A stretch of DNA of 64,000 nt from Escherichia coli (GTDB taxonomy: Bacteria; Pseudomonadota; Gammaproteobacteria; Enterobacterales; Enterobacteriaceae): the NCBI RefSeq assembly GCF_044647545.1, contig NZ_CP172818.1; one strand, 5' to 3'. The position numbers were made by a program. Below are positions 34,101 through 37,100 of this stretch, piece by piece. Numbering within the stretch: position 1 is the stretch's first letter; the number at the start of each line of letters is the position of its first letter.

Positions 34101-37100
34101 GGCACCAATAAAAAGTGGTCTGAAGATCACGCCCATCGTGTGCTAAAAAGTCTTGAAGATAATCTTTTTGCAGCGCTTGGTGAACGTAATATCGCTGAGT
34201 TAAAAACTCGAGCCCCCCCCCCCTCCAGTGTCTCCCCGTGTGGCCGGGACCCCCCCAAGACCCACAGCTGACCGGGGATGACGTCTCCCCGTTCCCGCCA
34301 GTCCCCCTTCCCTCACCGGCCCCCCCGACTCCCCCCCGCCCGCGAACCCACGCCTGCCGCGAAAACAGGATGAACCCCAAAAGCCGTGAAAGACGGCAAA
34401 AAGGACCCCCCCGCCCGGGGGGGGAGTAAGCGCACCGGCCCGGGCGCGGCGCCCCCCGCAACCGGCGGGGGCCGCCCAGCGCCCGGCGGACTCCCTACAC
34501 CACGACGCCCCGGCGCGGGGGCGCCCCGACGCGAACGGGTGCCGCGACGCCAAACGTCCGGCCCCGACCGCGACGAAAACCGCGACCGCCACGAAACGGC
34601 ACACACAGGCGAAACACAGCGGCCGACGCGGCGCGGACGGGAGGGCGGCCCCGCGGCCGCGGGCACGCACGGGGCACCCGCGCCAACGGAACAGACAGGC
34701 CCGCCCCGACCCCCCCGGGGGCGCGGCGCACCGGGCAGAAACCCCCCCCGGGGGCAACCGAACGCGGGCCGGATCGCAGCCGAACAACGCCCCCCCAACC
34801 CCCCCCCCCCCCGGGTGTTCCTTTAACCATCCGCAATGGCCAACGGTTTACAGAGCATAATACGAATAGCCGTAGAGCCAGCCAGTTACGGTGGTCGCGA
34901 TGGTGTGTCCGCCAGAAAATCACCACGAATACCAGAATCGCGGCACTGACCAGAAAATGATAAACAGGAAACACGGGGAGGTTCACTTTGCTTTCTCCTG
35001 TAGTATTTTCTGTAGGTTCTGAACCGGTTCGAGCGGGGTTGTGAGGCTGATGGCAATCCCCGGGCTCTTCCTGCATGTTACACTGGTACTGCAACAGGGG
35101 GCCTTCGCTCCTATGACATTACTCAGTATTTTCACTACTACACCCCATCTGCCATCCATAACAACCGATTCACCCCCTCGGGAGGCGTTGTTGCCCGTCA
35201 CCCGGACAGGCATCGTTATGGACTTCTCTTGTTGCACGATCGATCAATTGTTATGCATGCTGACACCACTACCCCGGTGGGTATGACCGATGCCTTTCTC
35301 ACTCTCTTCCCGGTCATCGTCGGCCTTCCCCGTTATTGTGGCGTGTCGGCACCATCGACGGCATTTCGATGGCTGCTCAGTGTTCACTCACGTTACGGCC
35401 CGCATAACCCATTGACTTCCTGAAGAAGTCGTTTCAGGGAGAGATTCAGCCCTTTTGTTACCTCCTGGACCGCTTCCTGTCCTTCCAGTTGGAGCGAGAG
35501 TTAGTCGGGGCGGACTTTCACCGACGGAAAGATCGTGCATTTCAAGGCACACACAACAATATCTGCGAGCGTGCTATCCGTCCGGTCGTTATGGGACGAA
35601 AGGCCTGGTTGTTCGCTGGTTCACTGATGGCCGGGAACCGAGCGGCACAGATAATGAGCCTTCTGGAAACAGCAGTCTGGAGCCACATGCTTGGCTGACG
35701 GACGTCCTAACGCGTCTGCCCGGAGTGGCCGGAGGAGAGGTTGGCAGAGTTACTGCCTCTTGAGGGCTTTACCTTCTTTGGGTAAGTGATACCTGCCGTC
35801 AGGTGTTTGTGCACCGGGCCATAACCTGCAGTTGGGAATTGAACGCCTGACAACAGGAAATGAGCTAGAGCAGTAAACACGCGGGCTGACAATGGGTCAG
35901 AATATGAGTCTGCCCGGCGTTATTCTTGGGGTCAGTACTTCAGATCCAGCCTCCGGTACCAGACTAGCTAGCCCCTACGCAACCAAATAAATCAACCATC
36001 GTAAGAGTGCAATCGTTCATATACACTGCCGGTGATGGGCGGAAAAATGCGTTAATGTTGAGTTCCTCGAACCCTTACCAATTAAGGGACATAGCCAGAT
36101 ACGCAACTGGCTGATGCAAGCAGTCTGATGTCTTTAGATTCGCTGGCCTGCGGGCATGACAATGTCAAACAGTCAAAGATTGTGGCGTTGACGGTCAGTC
36201 TCGGTGGTCGAAAAAGCTCAGTATTCTCGTTGGCAACCAGATAATTTAACAGTTGATGCTGAAACGAAATAGGCATCTTGGTTCTGTAATGCCAGTCAGT
36301 TAAGCAACTGACTGGCTCTTTTTCGGGGCTGTGGGGTATTTCCAGGGCCTCTCCTTTACCACTCTCGGGAAGGCCCTTTCCCTTCTTGTCGGTAATTTCA
36401 CAAGTTGTCCCATACTTGCAAGATCGCGCATCAGCTCCGGTATACGTCCCGGTGAAGCGCCCTGCAATGTCATCAGCATTCTCATCACCATTCCGCATGA
36501 TTCTGAGAAACTCAGTTGATTCGGCCAGTAACCTTTCAGATGTTCCGCCATTTTAATCATCTGATATCTCACCAGATTATAAGCCAGTAAGACACCCCGC
36601 AGCTCTTGCTCCACAAGCTCCGGTTTTTTACTTCTCAGCGTCAGCCTGCTCAGTTGCATCGTCTGTTTTATCTCCCTGTATCCCAGTTCGATTTCCCAGC
36701 GATGACTGTACAGATCCGCCATTTCTCCTCCGGGGAAGCGCATGGCGTCCGTCATCGACGTCAGCAGATGGCAGACTTTTCCTTTGCGCGTCACGGTCAG
36801 CAGGCGGGCTGTCACTTCATTTCCCAGTCCCGGCCACTTTTTTCGTGCCTGCGGGCTGGTTTTCAGCTTCACCAGATGATCGCCTTTACCCAGTTTTCTG
36901 ATCTCTTCATATTGCGCTCCCTTTCTGAGAGGTATCATCCAGTGGCGGTGTTCTCCCGCCAGGCTCCAGGCATTTAACAGTCCCAGTGAGTAATAACCTT
37001 TATCCATTAACGTCAGAGTGTTATCGCCGGTTTGTTCTATAAGTTGCTCAGCAAGCTCATTTTCGCTGTTCTTCATCGTGCCGAAGGCTGCAGCCGTCAG

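What the first reader, a model, noticed from the sequence alone, without database searches (positions are those of the whole stretch)
34199..34986. Anomalous segment is bracketed by C11 and C14 homopolymers and appears to truncate genes on both sides
C-run 34213..34223 sits directly after the last recognisable integrase codons and C-run 34799..34812 directly before normal sequence resumes. On the left the P4-type integrase frame loses homology at ~34209. On the right a possible minus-strand small hydrophobic ORF (GTG at 34984..34986, reading NLPVFPVYHFLVSAAILVFVVIFW...) runs into the segment, so its 3' end may be missing; this frame is an unsupported call. Same-strand homopolymer caps resemble tailing artefacts rather than any transposon end I know. 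A CTCGAG at 34207..34212 and CCCGGG at 34810..34815 lie at the junctions, and a perfect 14-bp palindrome CCCGCGGCCGCGGG lies at 34650..34663; these may be chance in a sequence this GC-rich.
Basis: partly seen in the sequence, partly recalled or inferred. Interest (0 to 1): 0.6.

Follow-up and report, generated by a model that had tools for sequence, protein, structure and literature searches.

The report
Garbled IS2 copy in deposited sequence
The odd 603-base, GC-rich, almost T-free stretch next to the leuX tRNA gene is the common E. coli insertion sequence IS2 with more than half of its letters dropped, so it is a sequence-record error and not a new genetic element.

Summary
The anomalous stretch is 34213-34815: 603 bp, C 47%, G 31%, A 18%, T 4%, with 216 bp free of T.

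It is not foreign DNA and not a tailed insert. It is IS2 (1,331 bp) read from its left end in K-12 orientation, after a deletion-only corruption. 602 of its 603 bases form an ordered subsequence of K-12 IS2; 390 native control windows gave 523±21, maximum 554. Nearly every C is kept, about half the G, a third of the A and under 10% of the T. There are no insertions.

The terminal C-runs are IS2 ends reduced to their C's. The palindrome and CCCGGG are chance. CTCGAG is native integrase sequence.

The segment truncates neither flanking gene. The integrase fragment and the phosphoethanolamine-transferase fragment already abut in ST131-type genomes, where 16 bp stand in place of the 603.

The segment is absent from 5,426 complete E. 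coli genomes, plasmids, phages, GTDB representatives and JGI metagenome contigs. Its spurious ORFs occur on one NCBI contig only.

Most likely a real IS2 sits here and was rendered by a corrupted consensus. Interest is low.

The parts
33512..33596 (+). tRNA-Leu(CAA), leuX: the attachment site of the KpLE2-type island
   Evidence: ARAGORN; Rfam tRNA, 59.4 bits; RefSeq annotation of the identical sequence
33783..34212 (+). N-terminal 143 codons of the P4-type integrase IntB. It is a pseudogene fragment, and the final CTCGAG (34207-34212) is native.
   Evidence: NCBIfam NF007246, E = 3e-28, profile positions 8-152 of 413. 99.6-100% identical to K-12 and ST131 up to 34212.
34213..34815 (+). Corrupted rendering of IS2 in IRL-to-IRR orientation. 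It covers IS2 from position ~1-10 to at least ~1200-1250, with about 55% of the bases deleted. Retention is base-specific: C 91-99%, G 34-62%, A 13-47%, T 0-21%.
   Evidence: LCS with K-12 IS2 is 602/603, against 523±21 (max 554) for 390 native windows and 533 for the IS2 reverse complement. Asymmetric DP score 828 against 502 or less. Pair-HMM logL -557 against -903. Retention table.
34213..34223 (+). C11 run. It is most simply the first 30 nt of the IS2 left end (TAGACTGGCCCCCTGAATCTCCAGACAACC, 12 C's) with all non-C letters dropped.
   Evidence: Best-fit start offset is 0-10 in IS2; alignment; the C count comes from reading the sequence directly.
34271..34300 (+). Best-preserved block, corresponding to IS2 172-204 (ACCGGGGATGACGGTCTCCCTCGTTGCCC)
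   Evidence: Ordinary blastn hit at 88% identity, E = 0.02; alignment
34574..34599 (+). 26 bases identical to IS2 727-756 once the T's of IS2 are removed
   Evidence: The longest such match anywhere else in the window, on either strand, is 14-15.
34799..34812 (+). C14 run: the 3' part of the rendering, where almost only C's survive
   Evidence: Retention falls again in the last IS2 interval; alignment
34816..34971 (-). Fragment of the yjgX/eptA-like phosphoethanolamine-transferase pseudogene. It starts at exactly the breakpoint that ST131-type genomes carry.
   Evidence: RefSeq annotations; junction alignments

Best explanation
The source strain carries a KpLE2-type island at leuX. In it the P4-type integrase gene and the yjgX (ept) pseudogene are already truncated by an old deletion that is shared with ST131-type genomes.

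An IS2 element (1,331 bp) most likely sits at or within about 10 bp of that joint. Its left end abuts CTCGAG. In the deposited record this IS2 copy is represented by a corrupted consensus. The sequence passed through a deletion-only, base-specific channel that kept virtually every C, about half the G, about a third of the A and almost no T. It added nothing and substituted almost nothing (one or two changes, both to C).

That compresses IS2 to 603 bp of 78% GC. It turns the C-containing IS ends into C-runs, removes every stop codon, and so creates spurious ORFs in all frames.

Shown: the identity with IS2, the nature of the channel, the native state of the flanks, and the uniqueness of the segment.

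Inferred:
- That the underlying IS2 is intact and really located here.
- How the corruption arose. One reading that fits is a single poor gap-closing read over a multicopy repeat, whose low-confidence or ambiguous calls were stripped rather than written as N. A high C-channel background would fit both the retention order and the substitutions to C.
- That the right end is a butt join. The rendering seems to stop inside IS2 at a GGG and then jump to TGTTCC.
For: - Identity with IS2. Local alignment first exposed IS2 with its T's missing. The LCS is 602/603. The asymmetric DP score is 828, against 450 (reverse complement), 406 (reversed), a maximum of 502 for 38 native windows, and 433±16 for block-shuffled segments, z = 24.6. 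A T-stripped exact 26-mer and a colinear chain of 10-13-mers map to IS2 172-1030. Pair-HMM logL is -557 against -903. The start maps to IS2 position 0-10.
- Nature of the channel. There are 0 insertions, the only substitutions are T>C and A>C, and retention runs C>G>A>T.
- Native flanks. ST131-type genomes join CTCGAG+ATTTATTAGCACCTAT directly to TGTTCC. K-12 shows both genes continuing, with IS2 lying between them in the same orientation.
- Uniqueness. There is no match in 5,426 complete E. coli genomes in near or distant mode. Plasmids and phages give only chance GC-rich hits, E of 0.05 or more. Diagnostic 24- and 26-mers are absent from GTDB representatives, viral contigs and JGI metagenome contigs. 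The two spurious ORF products exist on one NCBI contig of 4,499,902 bp only.
- The rest of the locus is normal. 34816-56000 is colinear with K-12 at 99.57% with 4 indels, and IS4 and IS30 are intact. ValS, PepA, YjgR and ArgF products are exact matches to known proteins.
Against: - No raw reads or assembly metadata were available, so the cause of the corruption is not demonstrated.
- No independent assembly with an intact IS2 at this site was found. The presence of an intact IS2 in the strain is therefore inferred only from the garbled copy starting exactly at the IS2 terminus.
- No sequencing chemistry I know yields purely deletional, base-selective errors. A post-processing step must be postulated.
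- Dropout is heavy at both ends of the element rather than rising steadily. That does not fit a single Sanger-like read profile neatly.
- With cheap deletions any C-rich string fits a longer reference fairly well: the null LCS is already 87%. The argument therefore rests on the margin over the controls.
Confidence: 0.93

Rival explanations
1. Homopolymer-tailing, vector or adaptor artefact: an unrelated piece of cloning or library DNA with C tails was spliced into the assembly.
For: C-runs sit at both ends, and the longest two runs lie exactly at the boundaries. CTCGAG and CCCGGG lie at the junctions.
Against: The interior is colinear with IS2 from its first bases onward. CTCGAG is native integrase sequence, and CCCGGG is no commoner than chance. 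dC tailing gives complementary tails on the two strands, not C on the same strand at both ends (established knowledge of TdT tailing). The C-runs are accounted for by the C's of IS2.
Confidence: 0.02
2. Genuine horizontally acquired high-GC DNA inserted at the integrase/ept joint.
For: The position is in a tRNA-linked island next to an integrase. GC of 78% resembles actinobacterial DNA, and weak hits to Rhodococcus, Mycobacterium-phage and similar sequences appear.
Against: Those hits are short, with E of 0.05 or more. Strand asymmetry is extreme (A 108 against T 26; 216 bp without T), which is unknown in natural bacterial DNA of this length. No protein or RNA family matches. There is no copy in any collection searched. 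The IS2 subsequence relation explains every base but one.
Confidence: 0.01
3. Real DNA: an IS2 copy that physically decayed in the cell to a 603-bp relic.
For: It is IS2-derived and sits where an IS2 could be, with IS2 in K-12 lying between the same two genes.
Against: No known mutational process deletes 729 scattered single bases, chosen by base identity, without substitutions or insertions. Meanwhile the immediately adjacent flanks stay 99.9-100% identical to other strains.
Confidence: 0.01
4. Assembly chimera: the strain has the plain ST131-type joint (or some other structure), and a garbled read from another IS2 copy was wrongly placed here.
For: The right end of the rendering seems to stop inside IS2 and to be butt-joined at exactly the ST131-type breakpoint. 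No other genome has IS2 here.
Against: The garbled copy begins at IS2 position ~1-10, exactly where native homology stops, as expected for a true insertion junction. The 16 native bp are missing rather than retained, and a model that includes them fits worse by 6.6 log units.
Confidence: 0.04

Closest known systems
IS2 (IS3 family) of E. coli K-12, the copy between intB and yjgX in KpLE2 (L005 1561-2891)
   Same: The segment is an ordered subsequence of it (602/603). It has the same orientation relative to intB and yjgX, and it starts at the IS2 left terminus.
   Different: Only 45% of the letters are present. As deposited, the terminal inverted repeats, the insC/insD reading frames and any target duplication cannot be recognised. 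In K-12 the element lies 1.1 kb from either breakpoint, with a CCTTG duplication.
KpLE2 phage-like element at leuX (K-12 and B strains; carries the fec and sgc operons; PMC3032704)
   Same: The order leuX, P4-type integrase, ept pseudogene, IS4, nanXY, IS30, fecIRABCDE is colinear with K-12 at 99.57% from 34816 to 56000.
   Different: The integrase is cut after codon 143, and 1.1 kb of yjgX is missing. The same right breakpoint occurs in ST131-type genomes.
Mis-rendered repeats and low-quality gap fills in deposited 'finished' genomes
   Same: The lesion is confined to a multicopy IS, lies between flanks of normal quality, is unique to one record, and generates spurious ORFs.
   Different: The error pattern is unusual: purely deletional and base-selective (C>G>A>T), rather than a collapse, N-run or mixed errors.
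TdT homopolymer (dC/dG) tailing artefacts
   Same: Homopolymer runs at both boundaries.
   Different: The runs are on the same strand at both ends, and the interior is native IS2-derived sequence. The runs are explained by the retained C's of IS2.

Membership tests
IS2 / IS3-family insertion sequence | Nucleotide sequence colinear with IS2 over its length | tested here: met
   As an ordered subsequence only: LCS 602/603, DP and pair-HMM far above controls, T-stripped 26-mer. Ordinary blastn sees only a 33-bp hit, E = 0.02.
IS2 / IS3-family insertion sequence | About 1.3 kb in length with recognisable terminal inverted repeats | tested here: not met
   603 bp. The IRL is reduced to C11+TCC, and the IRR cannot be identified. 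The deposited text is therefore not a functional IS2.
IS2 / IS3-family insertion sequence | orfA/orfB (insC/insD) with a programmed -1 frameshift, encoding a DDE transposase | tested here: not met
   The ORFs across the segment have no PHROGs hit. They exist only because T-free DNA has no stop codons.
IS2 / IS3-family insertion sequence | 5-bp target-site duplication | tested here: inconclusive
   The junction letters are lost in the corruption. Models with or without the 16 native bp differ by only 6-12 log units.
Sequence-record or assembly artefact | Absent from independent genomes that share identical flanks | tested here: met
   All of the best-matching records listed (30 shown, ST131-type; 99.9-100% on both flanks) lack it. 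0 of 5,426 genomes cover 80% or more of the query or match the segment.
Sequence-record or assembly artefact | Error signature not attainable by mutation (base-selective, deletion-only) | tested here: met
   Retention C 91-99%, G 34-62%, A 13-47%, T 0-21%; 0 insertions.
Sequence-record or assembly artefact | No raw-read support | not testable with these tools
   The source record (NCBI contig of 4,499,902 bp) could not be identified.
TdT-tailed, vector or adaptor insert | Complementary homopolymer tails (G(n)...C(n) on one strand) around a foreign insert | tested here: not met
   There are C-runs at both ends of the same strand, and the interior is IS2-derived.
Horizontally acquired high-GC DNA | Homologues elsewhere, near strand-symmetric composition, and coding or RNA content | tested here: not met

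The most novel reading that the evidence does not exclude
The 603 bp are real DNA in the isolate. That would be an IS2 copy from which 729 scattered bases were physically removed by an unknown base-selective process, sparing C and eliminating T. It would leave a T-free, 78% GC, i-motif/G4-prone relic capped by C-runs.
Probability: 0.01. Interest if true: 0.9.

Novelty: not a real feature. Interest (0 to 1): 0.08.

Why it matters
As biology it does not matter. The underlying locus is an ordinary KpLE2-type leuX island, with an old integrase/ept deletion and, most likely, an IS2 insertion.

It matters as data hygiene:
- A public chromosome record carries 603 bp of corrupted sequence.
- That sequence has already seeded at least two spurious predicted proteins in a large protein collection.
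- It would mislead composition-based island, G4 or HGT scans.

The forensic signature may help find similar lesions elsewhere. The signature is a stretch that is an ordered subsequence of a known repeat, with C retained and T lost.

Tried and rejected
- Base-substitution models. I collapsed alphabets (T>C, T>G, T>A, A/T>C and others) and aligned to local native DNA. Nothing rose above the shuffled controls. The uncollapsed alignment in the same run gave the IS2 lead.
- T-stripping plus homopolymer compression was too permissive: plus strand 109 against minus strand 100. T-stripped 9-mers alone are noisy, and only the long seeds and their colinearity carry weight.
- Internal repeat structure. 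Only short low-complexity matches were found.
- Identifying the source record. The look-up of encoding contigs on the two spurious ORFs found nothing. A full-text search for the contig length found only an unrelated paper. A rare YjgN variant led to JGI and Logan contigs but not to the record.
- Looking for an intact IS2 at this site:
  - Chimeric flank+IS2 queries against 5,426 genomes found only IS2-like insertions elsewhere. Strain 500010 has one inside a full intB. EM03-18-08 and 23CRST013 have IS2 next to an ept paralog in another island.
  - A gapped DNA pattern found nothing in JGI metagenome contigs or GTDB representatives.
  - Ten hypothetical read-through proteins gave no informative exact match. 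The only one found was a 145-aa partial on a 487-bp contig.
- The S. sonnei members of the integrase cluster are broken at a different codon, about 170.
- G4 and cruciform potential. There are 22 overlapping G4 motifs on the minus strand, but this is moot if the DNA does not exist.

Full report
**Observation**

The region reads as the first-stage reader described. C11 lies at 34213-34223, C14 at 34799-34812, CTCGAG at 34207-34212, CCCGGG at 34810-34815, and the 14-bp palindrome at 34650-34663.

The anomalous stretch is 34213-34815, 603 bp, with C 283, G 186, A 108 and T 26. T thins from 16 in the first 100 bp to none between 34558 and 34773. GC reaches 0.80 and AT skew 0.95. No other part of the 64-kb window looks like this.

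I tested the features against 2,000 dinucleotide-preserving shuffles of the segment:
- A perfect palindrome of 14 bp or more appears in 19% of shuffles.
- CCCGGG occurs 5 times against 3.5 expected. Both are chance.
- A C-run of 14 or more appears in 3.4% of shuffles. The two longest runs sitting exactly at the two ends therefore needs an explanation.

**Context**

The window is an E. coli leuX locus. tRNA-Leu(CAA) lies at 33512-33596. It is followed by the first 143 codons of a P4-type integrase (NCBIfam NF007246, E = 3e-28, profile positions 8-152 of 413).

Right of the segment, 34816-56000 is colinear with the K-12 KpLE2 element at 99.57% identity with only four indels. This includes IS4, nanXY, IS30 and fecIRABCDE. 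KpLE2 is the phage-like element at leuX that carries the fec and sgc operons in K-12 and B strains (PMC3032704).

The backbone to the left is of normal quality. ValS, PepA, YjgR, ArgF and YjgN products are exact matches to known proteins.

**What is native at this position**

In K-12 the integrase continues past CTCGAG as ATTTATTAGCACCTATTAAGG... An IS2 lies 1.1 kb further on. The yjgX (eptA-like phosphoethanolamine transferase) pseudogene runs on the minus strand across the point where the window resumes.

In the best-matching genomes (ST131-type: CB209, JJ1887 and the other best-listed records) the two genes are already truncated and joined. The joint reads ...CTCGAG ATTTATTAGCACCTAT | TGTTCCTTTAACC.... 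RefSeq annotates both as partial pseudogenes.

The window has the identical right breakpoint (TGTTCC). The 603 bp stand in place of 16 native bp. So the segment does not truncate either gene.

**Uniqueness**

- The segment finds nothing in 5,426 complete E. coli genomes by megablast or by blastn at E of 10 or less.
- It finds only short chance hits to GC-rich actinobacterial plasmids and mycobacteriophages, with E of 0.05 or more.
- Internal 24- and 26-mers are absent from GTDB species representatives, IMG/VR contigs and JGI metagenome contigs.
- Because T-free DNA has no stop codon on either strand, five overlapping ORFs of 128-199 aa cross the segment.
- Two of those products are in the 15-billion-protein collection. 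Each occurs on a single NCBI contig of 4,499,902 bp, and one is a singleton cluster.
- None of the ORFs matches a protein family, and no RNA family matches the region.

**What it is**

I first tested whether the segment is a miscalled copy of local DNA, using collapsed alphabets. That gave nothing above controls. The plain local alignment in the same run stood out, however, and on inspection it showed K-12 IS2 with its T's missing. For example, segment CGAAAACC-GC-G-ACCGCCA-CGAAAC-GGCAC aligns to IS2 CGAAAACCTGCTGTACCGCCATCGAAACGGGCAC.

I followed this up against the 1,331-bp IS2 of K-12 (L005 1561-2891, CCTTG duplication):

1. **Asymmetric alignment.** An alignment that makes deletions cheap and insertions dear places the whole segment colinearly on IS2 9-1224, with no insertion and two substitutions. 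The score is 828. Controls scored 450 (IS2 reverse complement), 406 (reversed IS2), at most 502 for 38 native 1,331-bp windows, and 433±16 for block-shuffled segments, giving z = 24.6.
2. **Longest common subsequence.** The LCS of the segment and IS2 is 602 of 603. Controls gave 533 (reverse complement), 528 (reversed) and 523±21 (maximum 554) for 390 native windows.
3. **T-stripped matches.** After deleting T from both sequences there is an exact 26-mer (window 34574-34599 = IS2 727-756). A colinear chain of 10-13-mers spans IS2 172-1030. The longest such match in the remaining 122 kb of both strands is 14-15.
4. **Pair-HMM.** A pair-HMM with base-specific retention gives logL -557 for IS2. 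It gives -903 for its reverse complement or reversal, and -1155 or worse for models that include the K-12 flanks.
5. **Extent.** The best-fitting start is IS2 position 0-10. The fit is flat for ends between about 1200 and 1250 and declines gently to the full length.

Retention by base along the alignment is C 91-99%, G 34-62%, A 13-47% and T 0-21%. T falls to zero toward the right. The segment's 283 C's compare with 317 in IS2.

The C11 run is most simply the first 30 nt of the IS2 left end, which contain 12 C's, stripped of every other letter. The C7 and C14 runs at the right are the 3' part of IS2 where little but C survives.

**Mechanism**

Shown:
- The segment is IS2 seen through a deletion-only, base-selective channel.
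- It begins at the IS2 terminus, exactly where native homology stops.
- The neighbouring sequence is of normal quality.
- No other public sequence carries it.

Inferred:
- The strain has a real, probably intact IS2 inserted at or within about 10 bp of the old integrase/ept joint. A model that also contains the 16 native bp fits 6.6 log units worse.
- The deposited text derives from a poor rendering of that multicopy repeat. An example would be a gap-closing read whose low-confidence or ambiguous calls were deleted instead of written as N. A high C-channel background would account for the order C>G>A>T and for the only substitutions being to C.
- The right end looks like a butt join. The text ends in GGG with none of the C's that follow any GGG near the IS2 right end, then resumes at the very base where homology to K-12 and ST131 restarts.

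I could not identify the record or its reads, so the cause remains unproven.

I also found no independent assembly with an intact IS2 here:
- Chimeric flank+IS2 queries found only IS2-like copies at other positions.
- A gapped pattern found nothing in JGI metagenome contigs or GTDB representatives.
- Ten hypothetical read-through proteins gave no informative exact match.

**Rivals**

- *Tailed insert, vector or adaptor.* This is contradicted by the IS2-derived interior, by the C-runs being on the same strand at both ends, and by CTCGAG being native.
- *Genuine high-GC foreign DNA.* This is contradicted by the extreme strand asymmetry, the lack of any homologue, and the subsequence relation to IS2.
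- *A physically decayed IS2.* This would need 729 scattered, base-selected single-base deletions without substitutions, next to flanks that are 99.9-100% identical to other strains.
- *A misplaced garbled read over a plain ST131-type joint.* This remains possible (about 4%), and it is still an artefact.

**Verdict**

The feature is not real as deposited. The tailing idea and the claim that the segment truncates the flanking genes are not. The biology underneath, a KpLE2-type leuX island with an old deletion and an IS2, is ordinary. Interest is low, apart from flagging the record and the spurious proteins derived from it.

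Noticed in passing
window 32273-36205, compared with 1-32267: Mosaic relationship to ST131 strain CB209. The ahr-leuX-intB'-ept' block is 99.93-99.95% identical, while the backbone to the left is only 97.4-98.8% identical. Beyond 36205 the window follows K-12 KpLE2 rather than the ST131 island. 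This suggests a recombination boundary near the yjgR/ahr junction and an island of mixed ancestry.
   Followed up: partly
window 2039-2079: The RelB/DinJ-RelE toxin-antitoxin pair that CB209 carries between cybC and nrdG is absent. About 709 bp of L003 (2181-2889) are replaced by about 39 bp in the window.
   Followed up: no
L006 (NZ_CP063483.1) and L007 (NZ_AP045773.1), positions 1820-3165: In two unrelated E. coli genomes an intact IS2 abuts a paralogous phosphoethanolamine-transferase fragment, in a different island next to dptF. Its right end lies only 14 bp from the position homologous to the window's right breakpoint (GTTGTCCCCACAAC|AGTTCC). This could be coincidence or a preferred IS2 target.
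   Followed up: partly
window 34212/34816 joint, compared with L005 (K-12) 500/4001: The intB'/yjgX' deletion joint removes 3.5 kb including the K-12 IS2, with 1-bp microhomology (T). It is shared by ST131-type genomes and, on its right side, by the window. IS2 lies between the two genes in K-12, so an IS2-associated origin of this widespread deletion is conceivable but untested.
   Followed up: partly
window 18348-19306: Identity to CB209 drops locally to 88-93% within the 'DNA-binding protein'/hypothetical gene pair between tabA and argF. This is a hypervariable gene in an otherwise roughly 98% identical backbone.
   Followed up: no
window 15000-34212: Of the records listed from 5,426 complete E. 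coli genomes, ranked by coverage times identity, the best is only 98.7% identical to the left backbone (ST648-like records). Only 18 records reach 99% or more on their best place. Even so, ValS and PepA are identical to the K-12 proteins. The source lineage seems poorly represented among complete RefSeq genomes, and the record itself is not in that set.
   Followed up: partly
window 35719, 36205, 41645, 43726: Four single-base indels relative to K-12 within the KpLE2 region. Differences from K-12 cluster at 35-36 kb, 41 kb, 43 kb and 52-53 kb, while the rest is identical. I did not check whether the indels fall in intact genes.
   Followed up: no
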